From NCBI GenBank assembly GCA_042850255.1, contig AP031373.1:390001-422000 (forward strand): a stretch of DNA of 32,000 bases, in the 5' to 3' direction. The translations under genes and the position numbers were made by a program. This DNA comes from Nanobdellota archaeon (GTDB taxonomy: Archaea; Nanobdellota; Nanobdellia; Nanobdellales; Nanobdellaceae). The notes under the pieces were generated by a model. That model was not told the origin of the DNA. It searched no databases and saw only the letters and a program-made list of their open reading frames with translations. Shown piece by piece: positions 633-23,521 of this stretch (positions are counted from its first letter, which is position 1; each line of letters starts with the position of its first letter).

Positions 633-1858
633 TGGTTAATACATTCATTTGGAGTTGGCGGAGTAATAGTTTCTGGACATTGGAATGGAGGTTGACATAC
701 AGGTTCTTGACATCCACAAAATACTCCACCTCCTAGGACACATTTTGAACAAACGTATGGATAATAGTCTATATATTGATAATTTACTATTATTTCATCA
801 TTATTTTCAGAATTACCATTACAGGTTATTCCACTCTGTGAAGAACATGAAGGTTTTTGTTGTGCTAAATTACAAGTATTAGATATAAGAGCTCCTGTAG
901 TGGCATTATAAATATATTGACAATCATAAATACAGTTTAAATATGCATTATATGTTATATTTTCATTATATACTACTGATGATATTGTTATAATTTGAGG
1001 AAATTCATTTCCATCATAATATACATTATATTGACTATCTGTACACGATATACTTACTACACATGCTATATTTCTATTTACACAAACCTGACATGGTATA
1101 TAACATTCATTTGGAGTTTGTATACTTTCACTACATTGTATATATGGATTTCCTGTAAATTCTTCAAATGCTTGGGCACTTATATCACTAGAATAACTAC
1201 CACTTAAAACATTTTGACAATCTTGAAATGATGTATATGGAAAAATAGTGTATGCAAATTGAACTCCTTCATTATATAGATAAAATGCAGGATTATTTAT
1301 TATATTTGCAGTTACTGCAAAGGGTATTAAAGATCCAGTACTACTACTATTAATTATTATATTTACTCCAGTAACTTGCACTGGAAAATCATAATTATAT
1401 TGTCCAGATGTTATTTCATTACAGTCTCCAATTATACCTGCTTCATAATTATCTGTAAATGTAAAATTAACATTATAAGGATAATATAAATTTAATTCAC
1501 TTAAGTCATTAAAGCTTGAATATAAATTAGCTTCATAGTCTCCAGTTAATAATCTATTAAAATAACCTAAAGCTTCATTACATGAAGGAGGAACTATACA
1601 GCCAGGTGGATAAGATGACCACTCTTGTTGGCCCCAGGAAGTTTCGCCAGCGAAATATGAGGTAGAATAAGATTGTTGTATAAAAGATGTATATAAATAT
1701 CCTAGAAAATAATCAGATATAGTATTTAAAGAATTATATCTTACAAATACCTGATTTTGTTGATACCTAAGAGATAATGTATAGAATGTTAATAATATAA
1801 TAATAATTATTATAGATAAAAATAAGATTACGTATATTATTTCTATCTGATTTTTCAT
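629..1858 (-). CDS. Large secreted/surface protein with pilin-type N-terminus, extremely Cys-rich
   Basis: 409-aa ORF. N-terminus is MKNQIEIIYVILFLSIIIIIILL. The mature part has 22 Cys by my count, is rich in Y/N/S/T/P/Q, has almost no K/R, and carries multiple N-x-S/T sequons. No family recognised. Confidence 0.65.
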   Translation of the reverse strand: MKNQIEIIYVILFLSIIIIIILLTFYTLSLRYQQNQVFVRYNSLNTISDYFLGYLYTSFIQQSYSTSYFAGETSWGQQEWSSYPPGCIVPPSCNEALGYFNRLLTGDYEANLYSSFNDLSELNLYYPYNVNFTFTDNYEAGIIGDCNEITSGQYNYDFPVQVTGVNIIINSSSTGSLIPFAVTANIINNPAFYLYNEGVQFAYTIFPYTSFQDCQNVLSGSYSSDISAQAFEEFTGNPYIQCSESIQTPNECYIPCQVCVNRNIACVVSISCTDSQYNVYYDGNEFPQIITISSVVYNENITYNAYLNCIYDCQYIYNATTGALISNTCNLAQQKPSCSSQSGITCNGNSENNDEIIVNYQYIDYYPYVCSKCVLGGGVFCGCQEPVCQPPFQCPETITPPTPNECINQ

Positions 1859-1860
1859 AA

Positions 1861-3063
1861 TTATATTTTAGAGTGAATATATAAAAGTATTAATATTATA
1901 GCTGTAACTACTATACCATGTATTATTCCTAATGCTAGTTGTATATTTGGTAAATAAAATATCGGTAATAAAAATTTATCCATATTTGGAGGCACTCCAA
2001 ATGCAGCTGCTTCCAATAATTCACCTAATATTAATTGAATTATAATTAATGTTCCAATAGTCATACCCAAAGCTTTTTTCAATATTTTTGGATGTTTTTT
2101 ATATAAATTATAATGTAATCCAGAGAAGAATGTAAAAAATGATATTAATATTCTAGTATGTAAGAAAAATGAATAATAGTCATCAAAAGTATAATAGAAT
2201 TCTCCAAATAAAATTATTAAGGAAAGTATAATTAATAAAAAATATACTGTAAAATTTTCTTGTTTATTTAGCATATTTCTATAGACTAATAAGTATATAA
2301 TAAATTCAAAAATTGATATAAATATTAATGAAAATATTGGATAAAATCTCCAATTGTTCGGATTATTATAAATAAATAGTGTAAAATAAATAGCTATAGA
2401 TATTTGGATTAAAATTACAATAAATATTGATATAAATAAATATTTCTTATATTTATTTATATTATTTAATTTAGTTAATGATACATATTCTCCTTCTTTA
2501 TAAATATTTATTAAAAATAATATTATTCCTAAAAATAATATAGATGATTCATATATAATCATAAAAATTAATGGATGAACTATTTTAATATAAGAAAATA
2601 TGCTCATCCAACTTGGAATAGTTACATCAATATCAACTTCATATATTTCAAAAATAGATTCGAAAAAATATGCAAATAAAAATAAGAATAATAAAATAAT
2701 ATATAGATATAAGGATTTTTTAGACAATTTTAATTTATTATTTACTAAAAAGTATCCTGCTATGAATGCAAAAAAATAAAAAAATATGTAGTTGGTTAAT
2801 AAAGCTGTAAGGAAGTCATATTTAATGTTTAATACAAATATTTCTATTATTATTATAAGATAAACGATCTTTAATAAATTATTTTTTGTATATTTTAATA
2901 GATATGGCATTAAAAATAAATAAATTATTCCAAATCCTATTATTAATATTTTAAAGTTCGAAATAAAAATATTATTATAAGTTAAGAATACAAATAATAT
3001 GAATACTAATAAATAAATAGTGTATATAATTACATTAATTTTGGATAAAGAATTCTTTACCAT
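1861..3063 (-). CDS. Polytopic integral membrane protein, unknown function
   Basis: 400-aa ORF made almost entirely of hydrophobic helices (I estimate 10 or more TM segments) with no soluble domain. It sits inside the operon: a 2-nt gap to the downstream gene and a 7-nt overlap with the upstream one. Confidence 0.6.
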   Translation of the reverse strand: MVKNSLSKINVIIYTIYLLVFILFVFLTYNNIFISNFKILIIGFGIIYLFLMPYLLKYTKNNLLKIVYLIIIIEIFVLNIKYDFLTALLTNYIFFYFFAFIAGYFLVNNKLKLSKKSLYLYIILLFLFLFAYFFESIFEIYEVDIDVTIPSWMSIFSYIKIVHPLIFMIIYESSILFLGIILFLINIYKEGEYVSLTKLNNINKYKKYLFISIFIVILIQISIAIYFTLFIYNNPNNWRFYPIFSLIFISIFEFIIYLLVYRNMLNKQENFTVYFLLIILSLIILFGEFYYTFDDYYSFFLHTRILISFFTFFSGLHYNLYKKHPKILKKALGMTIGTLIIIQLILGELLEAAAFGVPPNMDKFLLPIFYLPNIQLALGIIHGIVVTAIILILLYIHSKI

Positions 3064-4589
3064 ACTTTTAATATTGCTACTAAATATCCATTTGCATAAG
3101 GTACACTTGTTGGATAATAAAAGTCGTAAGTATATACATTTACTCCTGGTGGGACTGGATACCCTAAAGTTATACTATTTGATTGCTCTTGTGATATATA
3201 TGCATTCAATTCTATTTCTGTACCATATTTTGTTAAACAATAAACTCTAGCTTCTGCTATACCATTAGATCCGCTATGAGGATCCCAATATGCACCAGAA
3301 ATTATTATATAAGGTACTGAAGGATCTCTATCTAATATTGCCCACCTTGTTATATTAAATTGATATAATCCATAGCTGTAACATGCACCAGGATCGCAGT
3401 TTCCACCTACTAAATATACTAAAGGACATTGTTTTCCAACTATTGTACCGTTTATATCTTCTGTATTATTAAAAACGCCTTGTGGACAGTTGGTTCCATT
3501 ATATGTACATTCTGGGTCTGCTGCTAGAAATATATAATCTGGTTGTCCTGAAGAGTTTACATATGCTATATACAATCTTAGAACTTCGTGCCATGGATAA
3601 TCTATAAATACCTGTTGACATTCTTGTGGTATATACACAGTTCCTCTGTAAAAAGATCCTACAATATCGTTCAAATTATTCGATATTCCTAAATCATATG
3701 CTAGTAGATTTATATTCGTAGCAGTTTTATAAGCGGGAGGATTTACATAGTAATGACCTATACAATATTGATAAAGATTACATCCTCGGAAAAAAGACGG
3801 TAATTTTGTACTAGGAAATGCGGGTACCATATATCCTAAATATAAATCTTGAAAAAGAGCCCATTCTCCATTTGGACAATAAACTGACGCATTTGTAAAA
3901 TTATCACTTGGATATAAATCCGACAATGGTATACAAACATGTTCTTCTAAAGCAGATCCTGTGCATGTAGCCGGAGAATATAATGAACGTATACCCCAAA
4001 GATAACAGGAATCTTGTTGATGAAATGGAGCTGTAGCATTAACCCATCCAGCACCTTTTAATATTAAAAGTTTACCTGAAGGAGAAATTATTTCTGTAGT
4101 ATAATTATTAGTAAAGAAATATGTATAATTCCATTCATACCATTGTACTCCATTGCTATCGCTTGGCGGGTTTATTTGACAACTATCCCAATCATATGAG
4201 TTACCATTAAATAAAAACATTTGTACTAGCCATCCTGTAGCGGATGGCAGAAAATAAATAGTTAAATTCCACCTATCTCCATATATACTATTAAAATAGT
4301 TTGTTATATCTTGAGATATATTTGTGCATGTATATGAATTTATACAATAAGTATCATTTCCAGATGAGGACCAATAAGATAATAAAAAAGCATAAGATAA
4401 ATTTACCGTTTGATCATTTATATAAGGTAATAAAGTTACGCTATTTTGTATAGTAGATTCATATTGATTAACTGGTTGTGTTTGTTTGGAAATTGAATAA
4501 TTATAAGATAATAGAAAATATAATATAAAAGATAAAGATATTAAAGCAGCTATTATTATAAATAAAAGATAATTTATTTGACTCTTCAT
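3057..4589 (-). CDS. Large secreted/surface protein with pilin-type N-terminus, Cys/Tyr/Asn-rich
   Basis: 510-aa ORF. N-terminus is MKSQINYLLFIIIAALISLSFILYF. It has 16 Cys by my count, more than 10 N-x-S/T sequons, and is poor in charged residues. No family recognised. Confidence 0.65.
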   Translation of the reverse strand: MKSQINYLLFIIIAALISLSFILYFLLSYNYSISKQTQPVNQYESTIQNSVTLLPYINDQTVNLSYAFLLSYWSSSGNDTYCINSYTCTNISQDITNYFNSIYGDRWNLTIYFLPSATGWLVQMFLFNGNSYDWDSCQINPPSDSNGVQWYEWNYTYFFTNNYTTEIISPSGKLLILKGAGWVNATAPFHQQDSCYLWGIRSLYSPATCTGSALEEHVCIPLSDLYPSDNFTNASVYCPNGEWALFQDLYLGYMVPAFPSTKLPSFFRGCNLYQYCIGHYYVNPPAYKTATNINLLAYDLGISNNLNDIVGSFYRGTVYIPQECQQVFIDYPWHEVLRLYIAYVNSSGQPDYIFLAADPECTYNGTNCPQGVFNNTEDINGTIVGKQCPLVYLVGGNCDPGACYSYGLYQFNITRWAILDRDPSVPYIIISGAYWDPHSGSNGIAEARVYCLTKYGTEIELNAYISQEQSNSITLGYPVPPGVNVYTYDFYYPTSVPYANGYLVAILKVW

Positions 4590-5104
4590 CTTAAAATAAT
4601 ATATATTACTATTGCGCCTACAATTACGCCTATTGCTATATAAATGTATTCATAGTAATTAGATTTTTTTGTGGTAACCTGATTTGTATTAGTAGTAATA
4701 TTTAATGTTGTTGTATTTTCTATTATAAAATCTACATATGCGCTTTGTGGTATTAAACTAATAGGAGATATTAATGTACCATTTGGATATTCGCAATATG
4801 AAGCATTTATAGTATAATTACCAACTTCTATCGTTTTAATTACTGGAGTTAAATTATAATGTGCACAGAATGAATATTGACTAGGTACTAGATTATTATA
4901 ATAATCTATTGCATTAAATACATGCCCATCTACAATACAATATTGTCCAGATGAATTATAATAAAATTCTCCTCCTCCATATGTACAATATACTGCTAAA
5001 GGATTTCTTGTCGGATATATGAATTTTAAAAGCATCAAAATTGTTAAAATAATTAAGAAGTATTTTATTATTTTTTTAATCATTATATATTTATCAAAAG
5101 ACAT
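4586..5104 (-). CDS. Secreted tandem DUF333-like protein with C-terminal TM anchor
   Basis: 172 aa. It has an N-terminal hydrophobic signal. RNPLAVYCTYGGGEFYYNSSGQYCIVDGHVFNAIDYY resembles the DUF333 pattern (NPAxxYC..GG......G..C...dG). A second Cys pair follows (FCAH...YCEYPNGTLIS). The C-terminus is a TM helix ending in Arg. It is a paralogue of 5539..6390. Confidence 0.55.
   Translation of the reverse strand: MSFDKYIMIKKIIKYFLIILTILMLLKFIYPTRNPLAVYCTYGGGEFYYNSSGQYCIVDGHVFNAIDYYNNLVPSQYSFCAHYNLTPVIKTIEVGNYTINASYCEYPNGTLISPISLIPQSAYVDFIIENTTTLNITTNTNQVTTKKSNYYEYIYIAIGVIVGAIVIYIILR
4858..4961. repeat. 104-bp perfect repeat, copy 1 (inside DUF333-like gene)
   Basis: AATGTGCACAGAATGAATATTGACTAGG...CCAGATGAATTATAA is identical to 6171-6274. 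The flanking blocks (about 4770-4800 vs 6076-6110, and 4965-4995 vs 6278-6310) are similar but not identical. Confidence 0.85.
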
Positions 5105-5116
5105 ATATATAAATTT

Positions 5117-5542
5117 TTATTGATTATATGTAACATTTTCAGCTATTTCTGACGACGATGTTATATATATTATATTATTATCTTTCGCTATATATATATT
5201 ACCAGGGTCTAATAAAAAAGAAACAGGTTGATCATTATTATTTAATAATATAACCTGTTGGTAAAAGTTTATAGTATAATTTACATTATTATAATCGATT
5301 ATCAAATAATTATTATTAGAATATAATATAACATTATTTGGTACATTTATTTGTACATAATAATTTCCATAAGAATTTTCCATTGATATTGCAAGATTCT
5401 GTAAATTTTGTAAGAATATTTTAAACTGTTCTTCTTGTTGATTTTTTTGTACATTATAAGAATAACTAAAGTATATAGCAAAAGACAAACCTATAATTAT
5501 TAGTATTATGCCTACATTTAGAAAACTTATTTGATTTTTCAT
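5117..5542 (-). CDS. Small pilin-like protein
   Basis: 141 aa. N-terminus MKNQISFLNVGIILIIIGLSFAIYF is followed by a short beta-rich-looking domain. It has a 4-nt ATGA overlap with the upstream gene. Confidence 0.55.
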   Translation of the reverse strand: MKNQISFLNVGIILIIIGLSFAIYFSYSYNVQKNQQEEQFKIFLQNLQNLAISMENSYGNYYVQINVPNNVILYSNNNYLIIDYNNVNYTINFYQQVILLNNNDQPVSFLLDPGNIYIAKDNNIIYITSSSEIAENVTYNQ

Positions 5543-6390
5543 TTTAAATAGAATAGTAAAATAATTAAACCTACAATCATTACTACTATAGTAATTACTA
5601 CAGGTATTATATAACCACTATTGCTATTCGTACTTTCATTATTTATTCCTTCATTTTCAGTTATAATTTGATTTATTTGCTGATTTGCACTACTATTTGT
5701 TTGATTTACATATATACAAGTAAACTCTCCCAAACAATTTACTTCTACCTTATTAGGTGGTGGACAAGTTTCTAAAAAGTTTTGATATAATTGTTCTAAT
5801 GAATAATTTTGTGGACATAAATACCATGGGCTATAAGAACCATTACATGTGCCACATCCTATTTCTTCTTGATAATTATTAAGTATTTGGTAATATAAAG
5901 TTATATTTCCATTGTATAAACTATAAGGAATATAAGGAGGATTAAAGCATGGATAAACTACATTAGAACATTCTTCTACTTCCCATGGAGTATTTGGACA
6001 TTGTAATATATTAGAACAAGATATATTATTTGTTATAACATTTTCTTGCTGGTTAAATTCTGAAAATATTTGATATGGAGATATTAATGTACCATTTGGA
6101 TATTCACAATAATAATAAAATATTGTATAATTATCTATAGTTATATTCTCTTTTACTAAATTTAATCCAAAATGTGCACAGAATGAATATTGACTAGGTA
6201 CTAGATTATTATAATAATCTATTGCATTAAATACATGCCCATCTACAATACAATATTGTCCAGATGAATTATAAAAAAATATTCCTCCTCCATATATACA
6301 ATATAATTTATATATATCTTGAGAATGTAAATTGAATAAATAAGCTAAAATAATAATTAAAAAAAATAATAATAATACTTTTTTCATCAT
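5539..6390 (-). CDS. Secreted DUF333-like protein with extra Cys-rich region and C-terminal TM anchor
   Basis: 283 aa. Sec-type signal MMKKVLLLFFLIIILAYLF. The block YCIYGGGIFFYNSSGQYCIVDGHVFNAIDYYNNLVPSQYSFCAH is near-identical to 4586..5104. It ends with a C-terminal TM helix ending in Lys. Confidence 0.55.
   Translation of the reverse strand: MMKKVLLLFFLIIILAYLFNLHSQDIYKLYCIYGGGIFFYNSSGQYCIVDGHVFNAIDYYNNLVPSQYSFCAHFGLNLVKENITIDNYTIFYYYCEYPNGTLISPYQIFSEFNQQENVITNNISCSNILQCPNTPWEVEECSNVVYPCFNPPYIPYSLYNGNITLYYQILNNYQEEIGCGTCNGSYSPWYLCPQNYSLEQLYQNFLETCPPPNKVEVNCLGEFTCIYVNQTNSSANQQINQIITENEGINNESTNSNSGYIIPVVITIVVMIVGLIILLFYLK
6171..6274. repeat. 104-bp perfect repeat, copy 2 (inside DUF333-like paralogue)
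   Basis: Identical by eye to 4858-4961. It encodes SSGQYCIVDGHVFNAIDYYNNLVPSQYSFCAH in both genes. Confidence 0.85.
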
Positions 6391-8126
6391 GTATTTACAC
6401 CTACTACAGCATACATATCGCTTGGGAATGTACTTCCATATGGAGTACTAATTTCTGAAGCATAAGGAACATATAAATACCCGTTCTTCATCCAATATAC
6501 ACCAATACATGGTTGTCCAATTACCTGTGTACATTGTTGTGGGTTTTGGAAAAATTGAGCACATTCTTGTGGAGTTACATAATCTGGTGCCGCAGCATCT
6601 CCAGCTATTAAGATACATGCTGTTAAATCTCCCCATTGATTCTCTATTATCCAACATCCAGGTACCCCATATACTTCTTGACAAGTTTGTGAATTATCAT
6701 TAAATCCTACTAATAATGTAGCATGTCCTGCTTGCTGACCTTCTCCTAAATATCCTCCAATTACTAATGGTCCATAACACATTAAATCATATTTTATCTG
6801 AGTAGTATTATTAGGATTTGCAGATATTGGTACAATTTGTTGTGGATAATATAATGTATTAGATGTATCTTGACATGTATATCCACAAACATCTGATGAA
6901 TATGATAAAGCACTTGAAGGTGGTGTACATGATGCTAAAGTACCATCATATTTATTGTCTTCATTATCTAAGGATAATCCATATTGTTGTGCATATAATA
7001 AAGGATAATATATAGTACCACCATTACATCCAAATTGGTTTCCACTGCATATGCCGTTTTGTGAATTACAACATGTAGCTAATTGATATGCAGATGGATA
7101 TAGATCTTGATTTGGTTGATTGTTATATATCATATATGCAGAAATTATACCATTTCCTGTAGCAAATGCCCAACAGTCTCCACAATCTCCTTGATTTTGT
7201 ATTGGGGGTATATAGCTATTTCCGTTTATATCTCCCCAGAAGAAATATGACTGTCCGTTATATTGATATAGACAAGGACCGCTTGTATTTGGAGGTGGTA
7301 ATGGACTTGGACCTGGAGAAGGTCCAGGTGATGGAGAAGGTGATGGAGGTGGTGAAGGACTGGGAGAAGATTGAATATTTAATGTAAATGTAACAGATGC
7401 AGATTTGCTTTCATTATCTGTTGCATAATAAGTAATTGAATAAGAACCTGGAGATATTGAACTAGAAGTACTTATTGTAGATTGAATAGAACAGGAACTT
7501 GAAGTTATACAATATGTTGGGTTTATACTACAAGATATTCCTGAAGGAGCATTGCATGAAAAAGAAATATTATAATCTCCGTTCATAGATTCTTGTGCAG
7601 TTAATGATATAATAATATTATTTCCGGGTTGTAATGTAGCTTCTGATTGGTTTAAAGAAAGAAAAAGAGTATTTGATACAGGTTGATAACTTTGTTGTCC
7701 TAAATAAATTACTATACTAGTTGGAGAATTCTTTTTAACTGTTAAAGGTAATTCTTCATATGGCTCTCCATAGTACAAAGTATAATAATATCCAGAGTTA
7801 TAATACTGAATTAAATTATTGGAAGTATTTATATAAACACTGCATTCTGAAGTATAATTATAATAAGTATCATATACATAACAACTAATAGTATTTCCAT
7901 TCGCTGAAACATAATTTAAATATTTGTTTACCTTAAAATTAATATACATAGATGACCCTTCATTAGAATAGCATAATTGTTGTATAGTATTAAATAAGTT
8001 TTGACATTCTGATATGTCCATATAAACTTCCTGAGTTTGGTAGTTTATACTTGAAAACTTAAAATATAAAAATAGTGACAACCCAAAAACTATTATACTT
8101 AATATTATCCAAAACCATTTTTCCAT
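6387..8126 (-). CDS. Membrane-anchored papain-family (C1) cysteine peptidase with beta-sandwich-like domain and Pro/Ser linker
   Basis: 579 aa. N-terminal TM is MEKWFWIILSIIVFGLSLFLYF. A pilin-like small domain and a Ser/Thr-rich repeat-like domain follow, then the linker SSPSPSPPPSPSPSPGPSPGPSPLPPP (DNA about 7291-7370). The papain motifs are QNQGDCGDCWAF (Cys codon 7173-7175), GHATLLVGF (His codon 6723-6725) and IIENQWG. Confidence 0.75.
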   Translation of the reverse strand: MEKWFWIILSIIVFGLSLFLYFKFSSINYQTQEVYMDISECQNLFNTIQQLCYSNEGSSMYINFKVNKYLNYVSANGNTISCYVYDTYYNYTSECSVYINTSNNLIQYYNSGYYYTLYYGEPYEELPLTVKKNSPTSIVIYLGQQSYQPVSNTLFLSLNQSEATLQPGNNIIISLTAQESMNGDYNISFSCNAPSGISCSINPTYCITSSSCSIQSTISTSSSISPGSYSITYYATDNESKSASVTFTLNIQSSPSPSPPPSPSPSPGPSPGPSPLPPPNTSGPCLYQYNGQSYFFWGDINGNSYIPPIQNQGDCGDCWAFATGNGIISAYMIYNNQPNQDLYPSAYQLATCCNSQNGICSGNQFGCNGGTIYYPLLYAQQYGLSLDNEDNKYDGTLASCTPPSSALSYSSDVCGYTCQDTSNTLYYPQQIVPISANPNNTTQIKYDLMCYGPLVIGGYLGEGQQAGHATLLVGFNDNSQTCQEVYGVPGCWIIENQWGDLTACILIAGDAAAPDYVTPQECAQFFQNPQQCTQVIGQPCIGVYWMKNGYLYVPYASEISTPYGSTFPSDMYAVVGVNT

Positions 8127-8157
8127 ATATCTTTATAATGCTATATAATATAAAAAA

Positions 8158-8565
8158 TTATCCTTGTAGATTTATATATACATATTGTCCATTTGAGTAA
8201 ACTAATATATAATCACCTGGATTTATTGTATAATCACAGTTTTTAAATAGAACATTCGGATCTATACTTAAAATAGTATTTAATAAATCTTGACATGTAA
8301 ATGGGCTACCTTGGTAATTTATTAAATAACATAAACCAGATGCTTTTTTATCATAACAAGATATAACATCAAAAGCTACTGTATTCATAGAAGAAACATT
8401 TAATTCTACAACAGTTTGAGTATTGTTGTATGAAGGTAATGTATGATTTAAATAAGATGTAATATTTCCTTTAAAGTAATATATTATTCCTACAATAATT
8501 AATGTAGCAATTATCCCTATTATTATTAAAAATGTTAAATTTATAGGCATTTCCTGACTTTTCAT
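8158..8565 (-). CDS. Small pilin-like protein
   Basis: 135 aa. N-terminus MKSQEMPINLTFLIIIGIIATLIIVGIIYYF, then a small domain with 4 Cys. Confidence 0.55.
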   Translation of the reverse strand: MKSQEMPINLTFLIIIGIIATLIIVGIIYYFKGNITSYLNHTLPSYNNTQTVVELNVSSMNTVAFDVISCYDKKASGLCYLINYQGSPFTCQDLLNTILSIDPNVLFKNCDYTINPGDYILVYSNGQYVYINLQG

Positions 8566-8595
8566 ATTTTTAATATAATTCTTGTTAATTTATAA

Positions 8596-9078
8596 CTATT
8601 GCCATACAACTATCTGACTATTATTGTATATTATAAATATGCTTTCATATGGTATCAAAGTTTCATAATGACTTACTGGTAAATTAAAAATTAGATCATA
8701 AGGATTAAAGTTTGTATAATTTACTATAAAACTATATATAGTTGAAATGTTTAATACTACATCTTCATCTATATATACATCATAACATATACTAAATAAT
8801 CTATTAGTATTTATATTATTATTATAGCAATTTGCAACTAATCCTGCAAATTCAGAGTATATTTCATCTTTACTTTGATTTGTAAAAATGACATTTATTG
8901 CAGATGGATAATATTTTGCACATTCCGGGGAAAATCCACCTTCCGATATCAAAGTTTTACAATAATACAATTGAGAATTTGCAAAGAATTTTGTATATAT
9001 AATATCTAGTATTACAAATACTGATATTACTGCTATTATTATTATAAATATCGTATCTAGTGCAATATCATTCTTCAT
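8596..9078 (-). CDS. Small pilin-like protein
   Basis: 160 aa. N-terminus MKNDIALDTIFIIIIAVISVFVILDIIY, then a small Cys-containing domain. Confidence 0.55.
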   Translation of the reverse strand: MKNDIALDTIFIIIIAVISVFVILDIIYTKFFANSQLYYCKTLISEGGFSPECAKYYPSAINVIFTNQSKDEIYSEFAGLVANCYNNNINTNRLFSICYDVYIDEDVVLNISTIYSFIVNYTNFNPYDLIFNLPVSHYETLIPYESIFIIYNNSQIVVWQ

Positions 9079-9359
9079 ATATAACTAATATTACCTTCAT
9101 AAATATATATTATTCTGTATCCTTCAGGTATAATAATACCATCAATTGTACAATTCTGAACTAAATAAACTTTTTCATTTATCACTTTATAGTAACTCTC
9201 ATTATATAATTGATATAATTGATTACAATTTATAGACATTATATTATTACTATCTATATTATTTTTTAGATTAAATAAATATCTAAATGCAAAAAAAGTT
9301 GCTACTACTATTAATATAAAACTAATTATAGTCCAGTATATATATCCTTGACTCTTCAT
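9075..9359 (-). CDS. Small pilin-like protein
   Basis: 94 aa. N-terminus MKSQGYIYWTIISFILIVVATFFAF. It has ATGA overlaps with both flanking genes. Confidence 0.5.
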   Translation of the reverse strand: MKSQGYIYWTIISFILIVVATFFAFRYLFNLKNNIDSNNIMSINCNQLYQLYNESYYKVINEKVYLVQNCTIDGIIIPEGYRIIYIYEGNISYI

Positions 9360-11326
9360 AATTGTATTGTTGTTGGTAAATATGGGCCAAATATTGTATA
9401 AACTGCTATTATTCCTATTATTGAAAATATAAAATAAAATATAGTTCCAGTTATAAGATTTTTTCCTATATAATATGAAATCATTGTATTATCGAATCCA
9501 TACTTAATTCCTGCAGTCATAAAGGATGTTATAGCTACATATTCTATAAAAAATATTCCTATAATTGCCTCAAAATAAGTTGGTGGGATTAAATTATATA
9601 AATTAAATGTATTTACAACAAAGCTAACTAAACTAAATGATCCACCTAGTCCTAGTGATTGGCTTATCATTTGGAAAAAATAAGCAATTGCAAATAATAC
9701 AGAAACTATAGCATTATTGAATACAGTTACTAATGAAGAAATAAATGGAATTAAATCTCTAGAAGTCATATCTAACATACTAATAATTTCATTTAATATT
9801 TTTCTAATATTATATCTTATATTAATAACATTTTCTAAGTTATAGGATATATTATAAGTAATCTGAGATAAAGCTTCTGGACCCTTTACTATTGAGTATA
9901 CAATTAATTGCATAGTTTCTCTTATTAATTTAGATGGGTAATAATTTAGAGAACCAACTTTTTTATCAAATATTGATGATATCAAATCATAACCTTTTCT
10001 TAAATTATATAATGTTATTTTTAGAAATCTCTCCATTACTCCAGAAGATTTTATTATTTTATAATTTTCATAAGTTTTTTGTACAACAATTTCCATTGGA
10101 TATCCATCCTCTAAAAGTGATGCAAATTCATAAGTAACTATTGGAAACTCGTTTTCCATTTCTTCTATCTGATTTATTTTCTTTACCTTTTGAAAAGAAG
10201 TTAAATAATAGTAAGAACCTACTCCTAATCCTAATCCTAATGGTAGCATTAGTGTTAAAAATGAATAAACTATTGCCCTATCTTGATAAACTATATTAAG
10301 ATAACCATTTAAATCTCCCGGAGGTAAATATAGTATAGATAAAGATAAAGTAATTAGGTGATAAATTCCTATTATAGATAAAGAACCTAAGATTATAGAA
10401 ATAATAATAGCTGGAATTTCTTTATTTCCTACTTTAAATTTTCCTGGTTTTGGTAAATCTTTAGCTAATGATAGATCTGGTGTAGAAAAAGCAAATGGAT
10501 TTTTAGATAAAAGATTCTGAGCAATTAGAACTGTTATAATTGGTAGTATAATTATATAACTAAATGCTATAAAATAAAAACTTACAGTACTCAATAGAAA
10601 TACAGATAATATTGGTAGCATGATTAAACTTACTAATGGCATCATTACCAAAAATGATACAATAACTGTAGCAGGTTCTTTTAATTCATCTACATATGAT
10701 TGAGATTTTTCTAAAGATTTTTTTAGTATCCAATTTAATATTCTATCTACTATTTTATTTATTTCTTCTATAGAATTTTTATATTTAATATTTACTAAAT
10801 GAGTCATTGCATATACAAAATCTGGATTTAAATAGAACCATCTATATTGATAAAATTGTAATGCAGATTCTATATCTTTAAATCTATTTGTTTCTAAATC
10901 ATAAACTAATTTTTTGAAATCATCTGCTAATATGCCTTTCATATAGTATGCTACATATTGTATAGCTCCTTCTAAATTAGGATTTCTTTTTATATATAAT
11001 GCTAAATATAATATGATCCAAATAGCCTCAGAAGTTACCTGTATTTTTGCAATTTGTGTATAAAATATTGGATAATACATTAAATAAAAATCTAATATTA
11101 GTAAAGAAATAAACAAAGAAAAAGCTAATTGAAAGGATATAAAATTTAATACAAAAAATATAACTATAGAGAAGATAAGTAGTGATATAGTAGAAGAAAA
11201 TATTTTGTTAGGATCTGTATTTAATTTATTTAACCATAAATGGAAAGCATATATTTTATATAATCTATCTGGTGCTTTTAATTTTATTAAATTGAAATTA
11301 TTGTAAAAATATTCAAAAAAAGACAT
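9356..11326 (-). CDS. FlaJ/TadC/PilC-like polytopic membrane platform protein (two T2SS-F-like cytoplasmic domains)
   Basis: 656 aa. TM clusters alternate with two roughly 100-aa helical soluble segments. One starts at PIFYTQIAKIQVTSEAIW...NLEGAIQYVAYYMKGILADDFKKLVYDLETNRFKDIESAL. The other starts at EMENEFPIVTYEFASLLEDGYPMEIVVQKTY... Both follow the T2SSF pattern (x-lp-l-ll-G-sl-al, g-l-ef-i, g-al). Size and topology match archaeal FlaJ/TadC. The call rests on pattern recognition only. Confidence 0.6.
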   Translation of the reverse strand: MSFFEYFYNNFNLIKLKAPDRLYKIYAFHLWLNKLNTDPNKIFSSTISLLIFSIVIFFVLNFISFQLAFSLFISLLILDFYLMYYPIFYTQIAKIQVTSEAIWIILYLALYIKRNPNLEGAIQYVAYYMKGILADDFKKLVYDLETNRFKDIESALQFYQYRWFYLNPDFVYAMTHLVNIKYKNSIEEINKIVDRILNWILKKSLEKSQSYVDELKEPATVIVSFLVMMPLVSLIMLPILSVFLLSTVSFYFIAFSYIIILPIITVLIAQNLLSKNPFAFSTPDLSLAKDLPKPGKFKVGNKEIPAIIISIILGSLSIIGIYHLITLSLSILYLPPGDLNGYLNIVYQDRAIVYSFLTLMLPLGLGLGVGSYYYLTSFQKVKKINQIEEMENEFPIVTYEFASLLEDGYPMEIVVQKTYENYKIIKSSGVMERFLKITLYNLRKGYDLISSIFDKKVGSLNYYPSKLIRETMQLIVYSIVKGPEALSQITYNISYNLENVINIRYNIRKILNEIISMLDMTSRDLIPFISSLVTVFNNAIVSVLFAIAYFFQMISQSLGLGGSFSLVSFVVNTFNLYNLIPPTYFEAIIGIFFIEYVAITSFMTAGIKYGFDNTMISYYIGKNLITGTIFYFIFSIIGIIAVYTIFGPYLPTTIQL

Positions 11327-11331
11327 TATCT

Positions 11332-12078
11332 TTAGGATATGCTATTTAGCTGTGGATATGGTATATTTAATAAGAATTGACACAATGGTACTGGTGTGTT
11401 ACCATTCATATTTAATGCAGGACAGTTTCCTACAACGTATAATATTTCATTAGTAACATTCAGATTTAATGTACAGTTATAATTTGTATTATAATAGTCT
11501 AATACCTTTAGCAATGCTAAGAATACCTGATTTGTTATCCATGTTGGAGTTGTAGAAGAACAAGCTTGTGGTCCTGGATATAATAATTGTGATGGAGTAG
11601 AGAAATATATATTTTCTTGTAATGTTGTTGCGTTAAATATAGTAGCTGGTGAATAGTTACCAAATACCAATGAAGTAGCAGTTACAGAATCATACTGTAA
11701 ATTATCTATATAATTCTGACATTCTAGATACATACAATCTAGTGGAGATACAGGATATCCCTGGTATTCACACTGATTATTTCCTCCATATAATTGTAAT
11801 GCCACACTACATGGTACAGAATTTGCACATAAATAATAACCTGGTTGTGGCTCTACAATTCCATTTCCTATGCTTACATATTTTGAACAGAAATCTATAT
11901 AGCTATTTTGACATGCACTTACACATTCACTAACTGCTTGTTGTTTTTCTGTGTTAGAAATTTGAGAAATATGTGAAGCTTGTTGTTGAAATAATTTTAT
12001 TACTATTACTGCTACTACTAACATTATTATTATTACGAAGATCAATTCTACTGCCATATCTACAGCCCTCTTCTTCAT
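11332..12078 (-). CDS. Pilin-like protein with Class-III-signal-like motif (first gene of the array), Cys-rich
   Basis: 248 aa. MKKRAVDMAVELIFVIIIMLVVAVIVI resembles the archaeal class III signal pattern (basic, small residue, then x-S/M-x-E-L/F-hydrophobic). The mature part is Cys/Tyr/Asn/Pro-rich with sequons. Confidence 0.55.
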   Translation of the reverse strand: MKKRAVDMAVELIFVIIIMLVVAVIVIKLFQQQASHISQISNTEKQQAVSECVSACQNSYIDFCSKYVSIGNGIVEPQPGYYLCANSVPCSVALQLYGGNNQCEYQGYPVSPLDCMYLECQNYIDNLQYDSVTATSLVFGNYSPATIFNATTLQENIYFSTPSQLLYPGPQACSSTTPTWITNQVFLALLKVLDYYNTNYNCTLNLNVTNEILYVVGNCPALNMNGNTPVPLCQFLLNIPYPQLNSIS

Positions 12079-12113: not shown

Positions 12114-12521
12114 TTAATAATGTATTATAAAAAGAAGCTCTTTACCTTCTATTAATTTTTCAATTATTTTTCTATTAATATCTCTAGCGCTTTTATTAGA
12201 GTATATTGCTAATGTTCTGTTATCTATATAATTACTTTTTCTTATTACTATACTTTTTTCATCTGATAATTTTAAATTTTTTGACCCGTATGCTATTAGA
12301 TTATCAATTAAATCATCCACCTTTATTTCTACTTTTATTCTTCCTTCATCTAATAAATATTCTTTTAGATCTAATGGTATATCTTTTACTGAATGAGTAG
12401 AGTTAATACCTATTATGCAATCTCCTCTCTCTGTTAAAAAATTTTCTTTTGTTATTTCTAAAGTAGATTTATGAGTTGCCTTAATTAACCTATCTCCCTT
12501 AGCACTTATTACTAATTTCAT
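12114..12521 (-). CDS. DUF371-family protein
   Basis: 135 aa. KATHKSTLEITKENFLTERGDCIIGINS matches the conserved DUF371 core (THxTTxEiTke..LT.RGDCIiGv) as I recall it. Confidence 0.5.
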   Translation of the reverse strand: MKLVISAKGDRLIKATHKSTLEITKENFLTERGDCIIGINSTHSVKDIPLDLKEYLLDEGRIKVEIKVDDLIDNLIAYGSKNLKLSDEKSIVIRKSNYIDNRTLAIYSNKSARDINRKIIEKLIEGKELLFIIHY

Positions 12522-13353
12522 TTAAGTATTCCAATATTCTTCTAGTTACATTTTTACCGACATATTTTTCAAATCCTTCATATTGAAATATATTATGTAC
12601 ATCTATAAGATAATAATTATCATCTTTTATTAATACATCATATGCAAATATTTGTAAATCTGCTTTTTCCATTATTTTATATCCTATTTCCTTTAATTCT
12701 TCATCTATTTCATAAGGTTTTCCATAGGCTCCTTGACTTATATTTCCTTTAAAATTATTTTCATTTATTCTTTGCATACCTCCAAAAGGTTCGTTAATGA
12801 ATATAACTCTAATATCTTTTTCATATGGTATATATTTTTGAAAGATCAAAAATCTAAGATTTCCTCTTTTATTTATTAAATAATCCTCTAAAAATCTATA
12901 TAATTCTTCTTCATTATTTATTTTATATACAAATTCTCCTCTATGTATCAATTGATGTTTTATTATCATTGGAAATCCTATTTTCTTAATTACATGTTCT
13001 ATATTATCTAAAGAATATATTTTAGCAAACTCTGGTATATTTACATATTTATATAATAGATGATAAAACATTGCTTTATACATTATAGTTTCCTTTACAT
13101 GTATTCTATTTACAACATTTTTTCCATTATCATATAAAAACTTAGCTAGTAGATGTGAATCGTAGGAAGCTGTTGCTCCGACGAAAAAATAATAAGTATC
13201 GTAATTTAGTATCTTGCTTTCTTCAAATGGAAATATTTCTATTTTATCCATTTCTAATATCTCTATATTATCAAAATTTCTTACCTCTTCCTTGATTCTT
13301 TTTATCCTATAATCGTCAATATCTTTTCTTATTAGTATAGCTATTTTGTTCAT
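12499..13353 (-). CDS. ATP-grasp fold ligase (RimK-like)
   Basis: 284 aa. An N-terminal pre-ATP-grasp region is followed by GFPMIIKHQLIHRGEFVYKINNEEEL, FIFQKYIPYEKDIRVIFI and a C-terminal YLIDVHN-type segment, typical of RimK/LysX/MptN-like ligases. The substrate cannot be assigned. Confidence 0.55.
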   Translation of the reverse strand: MNKIAILIRKDIDDYRIKRIKEEVRNFDNIEILEMDKIEIFPFEESKILNYDTYYFFVGATASYDSHLLAKFLYDNGKNVVNRIHVKETIMYKAMFYHLLYKYVNIPEFAKIYSLDNIEHVIKKIGFPMIIKHQLIHRGEFVYKINNEEELYRFLEDYLINKRGNLRFLIFQKYIPYEKDIRVIFINEPFGGMQRINENNFKGNISQGAYGKPYEIDEELKEIGYKIMEKADLQIFAYDVLIKDDNYYLIDVHNIFQYEGFEKYVGKNVTRRILEYLNEISNKC

Positions 13354-23035: not shown

Positions 23036-23521
23036 ATGCCCTCTCGGAGTCTCCTTCCTAAAAAAGTATTTTTTACTTCAGGGATTGGGGTTGCAGAAGA
23101 TCCATTATTAAGTTTTGAATTTGCATTGAGAGATGCAAAAATAGAAAAATTTAATTTAGTTCCAGTTTCTAGCATAGCGCCTCCAAATATAAAAATAATA
23201 GATATAAATGAAGGATTAAAAAAATTAAAACCTGGTCAAATAGTATTTTGTGTTCTAGCTAGGTTTACTTCTAATGAGGAAGGAAAGGAGATATATTCTT
23301 CAGTAGGTGTAGCATTACCAAGGGATAAAAAATATAATGGATATTTTACAGAATATCACGGATACTATACTGGAAAGGAAGATGGATACGCAAAAAATAA
23401 AGCAGAATATATGTTAAAGACAGCATTTAATATTGAAGTAGAGAATAGTTTTGAGGTATTTAGAAAAACAAGGGTAGAAAAATATACAACAGTTGTATCT
23501 TCTGCAGTATTTATATTATAG
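23036..23521 (+). CDS. pdaD: Pyruvoyl-dependent arginine decarboxylase
   Basis: 161 aa. LPKKVFFTSGIGVAEDPLLSFEFALRDAKIEKFNLVPVSSIAPPN matches the PdaD N-terminal region, including the V-S-S self-cleavage site. Confidence 0.75.
   Translation: MPSRSLLPKKVFFTSGIGVAEDPLLSFEFALRDAKIEKFNLVPVSSIAPPNIKIIDINEGLKKLKPGQIVFCVLARFTSNEEGKEIYSSVGVALPRDKKYNGYFTEYHGYYTGKEDGYAKNKAEYMLKTAFNIEVENSFEVFRKTRVEKYTTVVSSAVFIL

What the first reader, a model, noticed from the sequence alone, without database searches (positions are those of the whole stretch)
6387..8126. Papain-family cysteine protease built into the pilin-like locus
The C-terminal ~290 aa carry the complete C1 catalytic set in the right order: oxyanion Gln and nucleophile Cys in QNQGDCGDCWAF, His in GHATLLVGF, and Asn in IIENQWG. 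Upstream are an N-terminal membrane helix, a domain resembling the small pilin-like proteins, a Ser/Thr-rich beta-sandwich-like module and a 27-residue Pro/Ser linker. This is the architecture of an enzyme held away from the cell surface on a stalk. An extracellular papain-like protease coupled to a pilus-like assembly module is unusual for archaea. In a symbiont or parasite it could degrade a host S-layer or scavenge peptides.
Basis: partly seen in the sequence, partly recalled or inferred. Interest (0 to 1): 0.75.

Follow-up and report, generated by a model that had tools for sequence, protein, structure and literature searches.

The report
Tethered papain-like protease in pilus operon
A tiny parasitic archaeon (Nanobdellota strain YN1) encodes a genuine papain-type protein-cutting enzyme anchored to its surface inside a pilus-like gene cluster, next to a conserved partner gene, which makes it a testable candidate tool for cutting through its host's protein coat.

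Summary
ORF 6387..8126 (-) encodes 579 aa, identical to GenBank BFI73455.1, "hypothetical protein YN1_4420", of Nanobdellota archaeon YN1. Residues 280-579 are a real Peptidase_C1 domain: 66 bits against a cut-off of 20.7, with Q312, C318, H468, N496 and W498 in the papain columns and invariant in 24 homologues. The model is confident and matches cathepsins.

The gene lies in a tightly packed 12-gene operon. That operon holds a TadC-type platform protein, a canonical class-III-signal pilin candidate and several pilin-like proteins.

New points:
- Orthologues exist across Nanopusillaceae. The N. acidilobi one was listed as "Peptidase C1A" in a 2016 supplement but never discussed.
- YN1 carries a derived domain swap. 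Its catalytic domain sits on a different N-terminal carrier, and the ancestral carrier survives as a separate gene (5117..5542).
- The closest MAG has deleted the protease.
- Class-III-signal carrier plus C1 fusions also occur in other archaea.
- A DUF333 protein is encoded right after the protease in three of three outside loci, and it is fused at the propeptide position elsewhere. YN1's downstream gene is DUF333-like, so it is a candidate trans regulator replacing the missing propeptide.

The substrate is untested; host S-layer is one possibility. This is a new variant of known kinds, of moderate to high interest.

The parts
6387..8126 (-). CDS of the tethered C1A peptidase (579 aa), identical to BFI73455.1 'hypothetical protein YN1_4420'
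7689..8126 (-). N-terminal carrier module, residues 1-146: a hydrophobic helix (MEKWFWIILSIIVFGLSLFLYF) followed by a 4-Cys domain. It is orthologous to a separate 146-aa gene in Nanopusillus relatives. It has no class III cleavage motif.
   Evidence: 57-63% identity to the 146-aa genes of L001-L008 and 72% to the L061 orthologue. Only helix-level similarity to the w141 carrier: hhalign probability 12%.
7371..7688 (-). Ser/Thr-rich spacer with 4 Cys, predicted beta-rich, residues 147-252. It is absent from the Nanopusillus orthologues and present in the L061 MAG orthologue.
   Evidence: Weak Ig-like hits; pLDDT below 50; 63% identity to m256 over residues 1-242.
7290..7370 (-). 27-residue Pro/Ser linker, residues 253-279, encoded partly by a 12-nt tandem repeat
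6390..7289 (-). Peptidase_C1 catalytic domain, residues 280-579. It has 17 Cys, which fits 8 disulfides plus the free nucleophile, and no I29 propeptide.
7191..7193 (-). Gln312 codon (oxyanion hole, papain Q19)
7173..7175 (-). Cys318 codon (nucleophile, papain C25)
6723..6725 (-). His468 codon (general base, papain H159)
6639..6641 (-). Asn496 codon (papain N175). Trp498 lies at 6633-6635.
5539..6390 (-). w283 (YN1_4410): a type I membrane protein with a Sec-type signal, a DUF333-like N-domain, a Cys-rich stalk and a C-terminal TM helix. Its start overlaps the protease stop by 4 nt. It is a candidate trans regulator of the protease.
   Evidence: hhalign against bona fide DUF333 domains gives probability 93.7%, E = 1.8e-7. 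Orthologues score below the Pfam threshold. The C1-then-DUF333 gene pair is seen in L062, L063 and L064, and the two are fused in P0074-76.
5117..5542 (-). w141 (YN1_4400): a free-standing copy of the ancestral carrier module, which in orthologues is the N-terminus of the protease (MKNQISFLNV...)
   Evidence: 46-52% identity to residues 1-140 of the Nanopusillus proteases. AF2 pLDDT 86, with a helix over residues 7-56 plus a beta sheet. Homologous to carriers with KG|/KA| signals: hhalign probability 92.5%.
4586..5104 (-). w172: a truncated second DUF333-like paralogue with a C-terminal TM helix
9356..11326 (-). w656 (YN1_4460): a polytopic TadC/FlaJ-type platform protein
   Evidence: 77% identical to the 656-aa gene at the same position of the N. 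acidilobi locus. By gene order this is taken to be Nps_00520 (9 TMD, arCOG01814), which is 'Pilus assembly protein TadC', subclade 4F. Distant homologues hit Pfam T2SSF below threshold. No direct Pfam or PDB hit.
11332..12078 (-). w248: first gene of the cluster and candidate major pilin, with a class III signal (MKKRA|VDMAVELIFVIII here; MK(K/R)RG|IDMAV in relatives)
8158..9359 (-). Three small pilin-like genes: w135, w160 and w94. Each has a short charged leader, a Q or D, and then about 20 hydrophobic residues.
629..4589 (-). Distal genes of the operon. w510 and w409 are large Cys-rich proteins with pilin-like N-termini (MKSQ.., MKNQ..). w400 is a polytopic membrane protein with 0 Cys.

Best explanation
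YN1_4420 is a catalytically competent papain-family (C1A) cysteine peptidase displayed on the outside of the YN1 cell.

Shown:
- A complete, conserved catalytic apparatus and a papain fold.
- No propeptide.
- An N-terminal hydrophobic helix, then a small module, a beta-rich spacer and a 27-residue Pro/Ser linker ahead of the enzyme.
- Features expected of a secreted protein of an acidophile: 24 + 1 cysteines, 8 N-glycosylation sequons, no Arg and pI about 4.
- Translational coupling within an operon that encodes a TadC-type platform, a canonical class-III-signal pilin and at least 6 pilin-like proteins.

Inferred:
- The enzyme is delivered and positioned by this type-IV-pilus-like system. It could sit as a minor or tip subunit, or in a bindosome-like surface assembly. 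In YN1 specifically it may simply be held by its uncleaved anchor next to the machine. Either way it would act at the contact zone with the host.
- In orthologues the enzyme sits on a carrier module that is homologous, along its whole length, to carriers with canonical KG|/KA| class III signals. Carrier plus protease is therefore an old two-module design. YN1 has re-grafted the catalytic domain onto another operon-encoded carrier.
- The DUF333-like membrane protein encoded immediately downstream is proposed to control the enzyme in trans, as an inhibitor, an immunity factor or a folding helper. It would take the place of the absent I29 propeptide.

Most speculative: the substrate is a surface-layer protein, of the host or of YN1 itself, at the site where the attachment filament passes through.
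For: Enzyme:
- Pfam 66 bits against a cut-off of 20.7.
- Catalytic columns aligned to cathepsin H and L.
- Q312, C315, C318, H468, N496 and W498 are invariant in 24 sequences down to 19% identity.
- The AF2 catalytic domain averages about pLDDT 83.
- Foldseek top hits are cathepsins, Der p 1 and procerain, with TMt 0.70-0.77.
- dN/dS is 0.34 across seven Nanopusillus orthologues.

Extracellular location:
- The Cys count is odd (25), while every other predicted exported protein of the operon has an even count.
- The two polytopic membrane proteins have 0 Cys.
- The protein has 0 Arg and 8 sequons.

Operon:
- Gene spacings run from a 7-nt overlap to a 31-nt gap.
- TadC assignment.
- Class III signals.
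- Synteny is kept in 9 relatives.

Carrier:
- The w141 model has a 50-residue N-terminal helix plus a beta sheet at pLDDT 86.
- hhalign of w141 against carriers with canonical signals gives 92.5% over 121 columns.
- L062 is an operon of KG| proteins that includes VWA, C1 and C25-like fusions.

DUF333 link:
- The DUF333 gene follows the C1 gene in 3 of 3 outside loci.
- It is fused N-terminal to C1 in P0074-76.
- The w283 family against DUF333 gives hhalign 93.7%.

Biology:
- YN1 pushes a filament of about 6.6 nm through the host envelope. The proteins involved, and the way the host's outer layer is permeated, are stated to be unknown.
- In the related strain YN4 the filament displaces the host S-layer.
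Against: - The YN1 N-terminus (MEKWFW...) has no class III cleavage motif. Its module resembles the pilin-like carrier only over the helix, at hhalign probability 12%, and is modelled at pLDDT below 50.
- The w141 model has no significant match to any solved pilin. The best Foldseek E-value is 0.078.
- No assembly ATPase or A24 prepilin peptidase lies in the window. None is listed for N. acidilobi, and two nanoarchaea were reported to lack it.
- The N. acidilobi orthologue and all its operon neighbours went undetected in the proteome. The YN1 protein has only 10 Lys and 0 Arg, so if the orthologue is similarly poor in tryptic sites this says little.
- The nearest relative (TadC 86% identical) has deleted the catalytic domain and keeps only a 27-codon relic. 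The enzyme is therefore dispensable in at least one lineage.
- YN1 grows at pH 2-3. From general knowledge, that is below the usual working range of the Cys-His ion pair.
- There is no substrate evidence of any kind.
Confidence: 0.6

Rival explanations
1. House-keeping maturation protease. The enzyme trims or activates the operon's own exported proteins (pilin-like subunits, or the large Cys-rich proteins w510, w409 and w283), or remodels YN1's own S-layer where the cone and filament are inserted. It does not attack the host.
For: - The enzyme always sits in the same operon as its putative substrates.
[quoted passage not shown] They suggest these process or degrade pilins.
- In YN1 the cell's own S-layer is replaced by the cone at the organelle.
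- From general knowledge, Cwp84 of C. difficile is a C1A peptidase that matures an S-layer protein.
- Loss of the enzyme in a close relative is easier to tolerate for an accessory processing enzyme.
Against: - The catalytic domain accumulates amino-acid changes 8 times faster than TadC (dN 0.20 against 0.025) and at twice the rate of its own carrier. That pattern fits an interface with a variable external target better than a fixed internal one.
- No conserved cleavage motif is evident in the neighbouring proteins.
- A long flexible stalk is not needed to reach neighbours on the same membrane.
Confidence: 0.22
2. Nutritional exo-enzyme. A surface-bound protease digests environmental or host-surface proteins to peptides and amino acids for an organism that cannot make them. 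The pilus-locus position is incidental.
For: YN1 lacks most central metabolism and depends on host resources. Other archaeal C1 peptidases use ordinary Sec signals with Ig/PKD or Thr-rich stalks, which is typical of scavenging exo-enzymes.
Against: - The operon position is conserved in all Nanopusillaceae examined.
- Carrier plus C1 plus DUF333 is a conserved module in distant archaea.
- A cytoplasmic bridge to the host is observed, which makes external digestion less necessary.
- No peptide transporter is encoded nearby.
Confidence: 0.12
3. Non-catalytic or acid-silenced module. The papain fold serves as a binding or adhesion head, or is inactive at pH 2-3.
For: YN1 grows at pH 2-3. The propeptide that normally assists folding is absent. 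The gene was lost in a relative.
Against: All five catalytic-site residues are invariant across homologues that are only 19-48% identical. dN/dS is 0.34. The single unpaired Cys is the nucleophile.
Confidence: 0.05
4. The fusion of a small-protein gene to the protease domain is an assembly or frameshift artefact of this genome.
For: In eight relatives the 146-aa gene and the protease are separate genes.
Against: - The frame is open and continuous.
- An independent Logan assembly gives the identical sequence over 544 aa.
- The L061 MAG has the same N-module plus spacer in one gene, followed by a relic of the C1 C-terminus. The fusion therefore predates the split of the two lineages.
- The displaced ancestral carrier exists as a separate gene in both lineages.
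Confidence: 0.01

Closest known systems
Papain family, MEROPS C1A / Pfam PF00112 (cathepsins L, H, S and C, Der p 1, procerain)
   Same: Gln-Cys-His-Asn(-Trp) catalytic set in the canonical order. Two-lobe papain fold. The Cys aligned with papain C22 is conserved.
   Different: - No I29 propeptide.
- An extra Cys-containing insert between His and Asn (SQTCQEVYGVPGC).
- An insertion of about 40 residues after the Asn-x-Trp motif.
- 17 Cys.
- N-terminal membrane or pilin-like tether instead of a signal peptide plus prodomain.
- Sequence-isolated: only 4 of 1.84 billion representatives score E <= 1e-30.
Nps_00495 of 'Ca. Nanopusillus acidilobi' (arCOG03611, 'Peptidase C1A subfamily') and Nst1_643 of 'Ca. 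Nanobsidianus stetteri'
   Same: The catalytic domain is orthologous (about 42-48% identity). Same operon and same neighbours.
   Different: Those proteins carry the MK(K/R)xQLNLLS carrier and an Asn/Gln/Gly-rich linker. YN1 carries the a146-type module, a beta-rich spacer and a Pro/Ser linker, and keeps the old carrier as a separate gene. The orthologue appears only in a supplementary table and is not discussed in the paper.
Modular type IV pilins (S. sanguinis PilB/PilC; survey of more than 1,200 bacterial proteins, PMC8179133)
   Same: A functional module grafted through a linker onto a small N-terminal pilin module encoded in a pilus locus.
   Different: This case is archaeal and its module is a papain-type protease. 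The only peptidase-type signature named among the frequent bacterial architectures was IPR030392. Incorporation into a filament has not been shown here.
Sulfolobus bindosome (class-III-signal sugar-binding proteins assembled by Bas ATPase/TadC-like proteins)
   Same: An archaeal precedent for non-pilin functional proteins that use class III signals and a T4P-like machine to be positioned at the cell surface. It is mentioned; the details are from general knowledge.
   Different: The cargo there is a set of solute-binding proteins, not an enzyme. No Bas-type ATPase lies in this window.
Cwp84 of Clostridioides difficile, and the staphopain-staphostatin operons (general knowledge, not tested here)
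   Same: Cwp84 is a surface-associated C1A peptidase that acts on an S-layer protein. In the staphopain operons a papain-like protease gene is followed by the gene of its dedicated inhibitor.
   Different: Cwp84 has a propeptide and cell-wall-binding repeats. Staphostatins are cytoplasmic lipocalin-like proteins unrelated to DUF333.
Myxococcus Kil Tad pilus with interchangeable minor-pilin tips (PMC12075869)
   Same: A Tad-type pilus used at a cell-cell contact site against another microbe, with variable domains displayed by minor pilins.
   Different: It is bacterial, and no protease module is reported in the abstract. The likeness is analogy only.

Membership tests
Peptidase C1 (papain family, Pfam PF00112 / MEROPS C1A) | Profile match above the curated threshold | tested here: met
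   66.1 bits against 20.7, E = 6.4e-18, residues 304-500
Peptidase C1 (papain family, Pfam PF00112 / MEROPS C1A) | Catalytic Cys and His, in that order, in the homologous columns | tested here: met
   C318 and H468 aligned to the catalytic residues of cathepsin L and H. Both are invariant in 24 sequences.
Peptidase C1 (papain family, Pfam PF00112 / MEROPS C1A) | Oxyanion-hole Gln and orienting Asn (plus Trp) | tested here: met
   Q312, N496 and W498 are invariant
Peptidase C1 (papain family, Pfam PF00112 / MEROPS C1A) | Papain-like two-lobe fold | tested here: met
   AF2 pLDDT averages about 83 over residues 283-579. Foldseek probability 1.00, with TM 0.70-0.77 normalised to the target, against cathepsins and procerain.
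Peptidase C1 (papain family, Pfam PF00112 / MEROPS C1A) | N-terminal I29-type propeptide (typical of C1A, not strictly defining) | tested here: not met
   No I29 hit in Pfam. The linker abuts the mature-domain start (FFWGD...IPPIQNQG) in all 17 family members.
Peptidase C1 (papain family, Pfam PF00112 / MEROPS C1A) | Thiol-dependent, E-64-sensitive proteolysis | not testable with these tools
   Requires an enzyme assay
Archaeal type IV pilin / class III signal peptide protein | Short basic leader ending in [KR][GA(S)] before a stretch of about 20 hydrophobic residues | tested here: not met
   The YN1 protease begins MEKWFWII and has no such site. The motif is met by operon neighbour w248, with MKKRA|V here and MK(K/R)RG|I in relatives. 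It is atypical (MK(K/R)x|Q) in the orthologous proteases.
Archaeal type IV pilin / class III signal peptide protein | Long N-terminal alpha-helix packed on a beta-sheet head | tested here: inconclusive
   The ancestral carrier w141 is modelled with a helix over residues 7-56 plus 8 strands at pLDDT 86, but has no significant match to solved pilins. The YN1 protease's own N-module is modelled at pLDDT below 50.
Archaeal type IV pilin / class III signal peptide protein | Homology to proteins with canonical class III signals | tested here: met
   This holds for the w141 / orthologue carrier only: hhalign 92.5%, E = 4.7e-7, 121 columns, against the N-modules of P0063, P0071, P0207 and others. The a146-type module of YN1_4420 reaches only 12% probability.
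Archaeal type IV pilus-like system | TadC/FlaJ platform protein in the locus | tested here: inconclusive
   There is no direct Pfam, NCBIfam or PDB hit for w656. It is 77% identical to the 656-aa gene at the position of Nps_00520 (arCOG01814 = TadC), an equation that rests on gene order. Distant homologues hit T2SSF at 20.7, 17.7 and 11.6 bits against a cut-off of 25.2.
Archaeal type IV pilus-like system | VirB11/FlaI-type assembly ATPase and A24 prepilin peptidase | tested here: not met
   Neither is encoded in the 32-kb window. No A24 peptidase is listed for N. acidilobi. The whole YN1 genome could not be searched.
Modular pilin (pilin module + linker + functional module) | Incorporation of the protein into a filament | not testable with these tools
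   Needs imaging or biochemistry
DUF333 (PF03891), for the downstream partner w283 | Profile match above threshold | tested here: inconclusive
   w283 itself gets no hit. Its paralogue and orthologues score 14.4-22.6 bits against a cut-off of 25. Profile-profile comparison with bona fide DUF333 domains gives 93.7%, E = 1.8e-7.

The most novel reading that the evidence does not exclude
Carrier-borne C1 peptidase plus a membrane-anchored DUF333 partner is a conserved, undescribed archaeal two-gene module of type-IV-pilus-like operons. In Nanobdellota it would be the tool that locally opens the host's (or the cell's own) S-layer so that the attachment-organelle filament can reach the host membrane. 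DUF333 would act as a self-protecting inhibitor that replaces the papain propeptide.
Probability: 0.15. Interest if true: 0.85.

Novelty: new variant of a known kind. Interest (0 to 1): 0.62.

Why it matters
Nanobdellota such as YN1 build a large attachment organelle and push a filament through the host's envelope. The published work states that the proteins involved, and the way the host's outer layer is permeated, are unknown. This gene is annotated as 'hypothetical' in the YN1 genome. It gives a concrete, assayable and inhibitable enzyme that sits in the one operon combining a pilus platform, pilins and large variable surface proteins.

Independently of that, two regularities seen here appear undescribed in the searchable literature:
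- An old fusion of a class-III-signal carrier with a papain-type protease, found in several archaeal lineages.
- A tight genetic partnership between C1 peptidases and DUF333, a domain with no known function. It suggests a function for DUF333 as a regulator or prodomain surrogate.

The locus also shows module swapping between carriers, and loss of the enzyme in a sister lineage. Both are useful for asking whether the protease tracks host type.

Tried and rejected
- Direct Pfam and NCBIfam scans of the nine operon neighbours found nothing above threshold.
- Sequence and profile searches of PDB with the TadC-like, major-pilin-candidate and carrier families found only chance-level hits.
- The full-length AF2 model is unusable for residues 26-282.
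- hhalign between the YN1 N-module family and the w141 carrier family is weak: 12%, helix only. I therefore do not call the YN1 N-module a pilin.
- The sigma-70 promoter and terminator scan equals its shuffled controls and does not apply to archaea.
- Literature searches found no discussion of this enzyme. The terms tried were Nanopusillus + cysteine protease; Nanoarchaeota + papain; Nanobdella + S-layer + protease; and DUF333. The single DUF333 hit in a papain review is actually DUF3335.
- No chagasin, cystatin or I29 inhibitor was found in the operon.
- I considered and rejected an assembly artefact as the cause of the fusion.
- I considered a sortase-like transpeptidase role and dropped it for lack of any supporting feature.


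Full report
**Observation**

The minus-strand ORF 6387..8126 is a single 579-aa frame. It is identical to GenBank BFI73455.1, 'hypothetical protein YN1_4420 [Nanoarchaeota archaeon]', on a 773-kb contig. The neighbouring 656-aa and 141-aa proteins are YN1_4460 and YN1_4400. The window therefore comes from Nanobdellota archaeon YN1, an acidophilic obligate ectosymbiont or parasite of Sulfurisphaera ohwakuensis.

**Is it a papain-family peptidase?**

Yes.
- Pfam Peptidase_C1 scores 66.1 bits against a gathering cut-off of 20.7, E = 6.4e-18.
- phmmer against PDB returns 133 chains, essentially all papain-family enzymes. The alignments place Q312/C318 on Q19/C25 of cathepsin L, H468 on the catalytic His, and N496/W498 on Asn-x-Trp.
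- These residues are invariant in an alignment of 24 homologues that go down to 19% identity.
- An AlphaFold2 model is confident for residues 283-579, averaging about pLDDT 83. Its best Foldseek matches are cathepsins C, L, S, V and K, Der p 1 and procerain, at probability 1.00 and TM 0.70-0.77 normalised to the target.
- I could not extract coordinates, so the triad geometry itself was not measured.

There is no I29 propeptide. In every family member a low-complexity linker runs straight into the start of the mature domain.

The catalytic domain has 17 cysteines and the whole protein has 25. Every other predicted exported protein of the operon has an even number, and the two polytopic membrane proteins have none. 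This fits 12 disulfides plus one free thiol, the nucleophile. With 0 Arg, 10 Lys, pI about 4 and 8 sequons, the protein looks like an exported, glycosylated protein of an acidophile.

**Context**

Twelve genes, from 12078 down to 629 on the minus strand, are spaced from a 7-nt overlap to a 31-nt gap. Five junctions are 4-nt overlaps.

- The first gene (w248) has a class III signal: MKKRA|VDMAVELIFVIII here and MK(K/R)RG|IDMAV in relatives.
- The second gene (w656) gives no direct profile hit. It is 77% identical to the 656-aa gene at the same position of the N. acidilobi locus. By gene order I take that gene to be Nps_00520. The genome paper assigns Nps_00520 to arCOG01814, which is 'Pilus assembly protein TadC', subclade 4F, in the archaeal T4P census. 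Distant homologues of w656 hit Pfam T2SSF over nearly the full model, but below threshold.
- Six further proteins have a short basic leader, then Q or D, then about 20 hydrophobic residues.
- No assembly ATPase or prepilin peptidase is in the window. None is annotated in N. acidilobi. The census noted that two nanoarchaea lack a recognisable A24 peptidase, and that no pilins cognate to the nanoarchaeal 4F ATPase could be found. This operon supplies candidates for those pilins.

**Relatives and the domain swap**

The catalytic domain has orthologues at about 42-48% identity in 'Ca. Nanopusillus acidilobi', 'Ca. Nanobsidianus stetteri' and several Nanopusillus MAGs. All sit in the same syntenic operon next to the RNA polymerase genes. 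In N. acidilobi the orthologue is Nps_00495. Supplementary Data 1 of Wurch et al. 2016 lists it as 'Peptidase C1A subfamily', arCOG03611, with one TM segment, and it was not detected in the proteome. It is not mentioned in the text.

In those eight genomes the protease gene (483-536 aa) begins with its own carrier, MK(K/R)xQLNLLS..., followed by an Asn/Gln/Gly-rich linker. A separate 146-aa gene (M(E/D)(K/N)W(F/L)WI...) precedes it.

YN1 differs in three ways:
- Residues 1-146 of the protease are the orthologue of that 146-aa gene, at 57-63% identity.
- A beta-rich spacer and the Pro/Ser linker follow.
- The ancestral carrier survives as the free-standing gene w141 (5117..5542), at 46-52% identity to the orthologues' N-termini.

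The YN1 order is protease, DUF333-like w283, w141, then truncated DUF333-like w172. This looks like a tandem duplication of the two-gene unit followed by reciprocal domain loss. That reading is inference.

The arrangement is not an artefact. The nearest relative is MAG GCA_049974095.1, whose TadC is 86% identical. It has the same N-module plus spacer as a 256-aa gene, 63% identical over residues 1-242. That gene then stops, and a 27-codon out-of-frame relic of the C1 C-terminus follows (YYMKNGLLYIPYYNELPTLYGKTF against VYWMKNGYLYVPYASEISTPYGSTF). The fusion is therefore ancestral to both lineages, and the MAG later deleted the enzyme.

**Is the carrier pilin-like?**

The w141 model is confident (pLDDT 86). 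It shows a 50-residue N-terminal helix followed by an eight-stranded sheet, the general layout of type IV pilins. It has no significant Foldseek match in PDB, and the more sensitive libraries were unavailable.

A full scan of 1.84 billion representative proteins with the catalytic domain shows that the Nanopusillaceae enzymes are an isolated subfamily. Only 4 hits reach E <= 1e-30, and the next lie at 1e-26 to 1e-14.

Several of those next-best hits are also C1 peptidases with N-terminal carriers, and these bear canonical class III signals: MRKG|IAILTEIIL, MVKKA|FAPTTEGIL and MYKKA|IATEMLL. The last is from a Methanophagales MAG. Profile-profile comparison shows these carriers are homologous to the Nanopusillaceae carrier over 121 columns, at probability 92.5% and E = 4.7e-7.

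In locus L062 the gene sits in a run of at least nine proteins that all carry KG| signals. They include a VWA fusion and a C25-like peptidase fusion. Carrier plus C1 is thus an old, recurrent architecture of pilus-like operons. It is analogous to bacterial modular pilins and, in archaea, to the class-III-signal cargo of the Sulfolobus bindosome.

The a146-type module that YN1 now uses resembles the carrier only over the helix, at probability 12%. For YN1 itself, a plain membrane anchor beside the machine is at least as likely as incorporation into a filament.

**A partner gene**

In L062, L063 and the Methanophagales locus L064, the gene immediately after the C1 gene encodes a DUF333 (PF03891) protein. 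In L062 and L063, where the sequences were read, it has a Sec signal and a C-terminal TM helix. In L063 its start overlaps the protease stop by 4 nt.

In three longer proteins with bacterial-type Ig-like, fn3 or SLH domains, DUF333 (49-65 bits) is fused directly N-terminal to the C1 domain. That is the position a papain propeptide would occupy.

In YN1 the gene whose start overlaps the protease stop by 4 nt, w283, has the same layout. Its N-domain motif is NP.AVYC.YGGG...G.YC...DG..F.A.DYY, with YSFCAH a little further on. Its paralogue and orthologues hit DUF333 repeatedly just below threshold. The family matches true DUF333 domains at 93.7%, E = 1.8e-7, in hhalign.

I found no paper linking DUF333 to C1 peptidases. 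By analogy with propeptides and with protease-inhibitor operons, I propose that DUF333 controls the enzyme in trans. This is inference.

**Evolutionary rate**

Across seven Nanopusillus loci:

| Region | dN/dS | dN | dS |
|---|---|---|---|
| C1 domain | 0.34 | 0.20 | 0.58 |
| TadC | 0.11 | 0.025 | 0.24 |

The enzyme is under purifying selection, but it is one of the fastest-changing parts of the operon. Its synonymous divergence is unusually high, which hints at recombination or old alleles. [quoted passage not shown]

**Function**

- What is shown: a competent-looking C1A peptidase, exported and tethered, encoded within a TadC/pilin operon, with a conserved DUF333 partner.
- What is inferred: delivery by the pilus-like system and action at the host interface.

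The biological setting makes this attractive. YN1 has a cone-and-portal organelle, and a filament of about 6.6 nm reaches the host cytoplasm through the host S-layer. The authors state that the proteins and the mode of permeation are unknown. In strain YN4 the filament displaces the host S-layer. None of these papers mentions a protease.

Several points weigh against a required role:
- The enzyme was lost in a sister lineage.
- The N. acidilobi orthologue was not detected by proteomics. This is weak evidence if it shares the scarcity of tryptic sites seen in the YN1 protein.
- Growth at pH 2-3 is low for a Cys-His ion pair.
- There are no substrate data at all.

The rivals are self-maturation or own-S-layer remodelling, nutrient scavenging, a non-catalytic head, and an artefact. 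They are weighed in the structured fields.

**Verdict**

The finding is real and correctly interpreted at the family and architecture level. It is not unique to this genome, and the catalytic domain was already catalogued in a relative. The following appear to be undescribed:
- the carrier-protease design;
- its YN1-specific re-grafting;
- the DUF333 partnership;
- the link to an unsolved host-penetration problem.

I class it as a new variant of known kinds (C1A peptidase; modular pilin or bindosome-type cargo), with interest 0.62.

Noticed in passing
window 5539..6390 (-) and 4586..5104 (-); L062:9613-10539, L063:9791-10822, L064:9497-10180: A DUF333-domain membrane protein is encoded directly after the C1 peptidase gene in three unrelated archaeal loci. 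It is fused N-terminal to C1 in three other proteins. The YN1 and Nanopusillus downstream genes are DUF333-like (hhalign 93.7%). DUF333 has no known function.
   Followed up: partly
L061:8275-9134 (MAG GCA_049974095.1, Nanopusillaceae): The closest relative has the same N-module plus spacer as a 256-aa gene, but the catalytic domain is deleted. A 27-codon out-of-frame relic of the C1 C-terminus remains in the intergenic region.
   Followed up: yes
L062:3566-15253: An operon of at least nine proteins that all carry canonical KG| class III signals. It includes an 883-aa VWA fusion, the C1 fusion and a 688-aa protein with a weak Peptidase_C25 (gingipain-like) hit. It is a whole set of enzyme- or adhesin-bearing pilin-like proteins in an unidentified archaeon.
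   Followed up: partly
L001-L007 protease genes against the TadC genes: Synonymous divergence of the C1 domain (dS 0.58) is about 2.4 times that of the adjacent TadC gene (0.24) and twice that of the protease's own N-terminal carrier (0.30). This suggests recombination or long-lived alleles confined to the catalytic module.
   Followed up: no
window 629..12078 (-): Cysteine parity. All predicted exported proteins of the operon have even Cys counts (22, 16, 4, 0, 14, 4, 4, 2, 12). The two polytopic membrane proteins have none. Only the protease has an odd count (25).
   Followed up: yes
window 8127..8157 (-): The 31-nt gap upstream of the protease start contains TTTTTATATTATATAG about 20-30 nt before the ATG. 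This could be a TATA box for a leaderless internal transcript, but in a genome of about 25% G+C it may be chance.
   Followed up: no
window 1861..3063 (-) and L004:14483-15583, 17507-18577: A Cys-free polytopic membrane protein (w400) has a paralogue a few genes away in N. acidilobi. It has no recognisable family and always lies between the two large Cys-rich pilin-like proteins.
   Followed up: no
window 23516..24346 (-): A tyrosine recombinase (Phage_integrase, E = 1e-42; XerC/D-like) lies between a pyruvoyl-dependent arginine decarboxylase and an Fpg/Nei-like glycosylase gene.
   Followed up: no
window 12114..13353 (-): A RimK-type ATP-grasp ligase and a DUF371 protein overlap and sit directly upstream of the pilus-like operon on the same strand, divergent from the RNA polymerase operon. 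The pair is syntenic in all relatives, so the pilus operon might be co-transcribed with them.
   Followed up: no
window 7326..7359: The Pro/Ser linker is encoded partly by 2.8 copies of a 12-nt tandem repeat (AGGTGATGGAGA on the + strand). Its length could therefore vary between strains.
   Followed up: no
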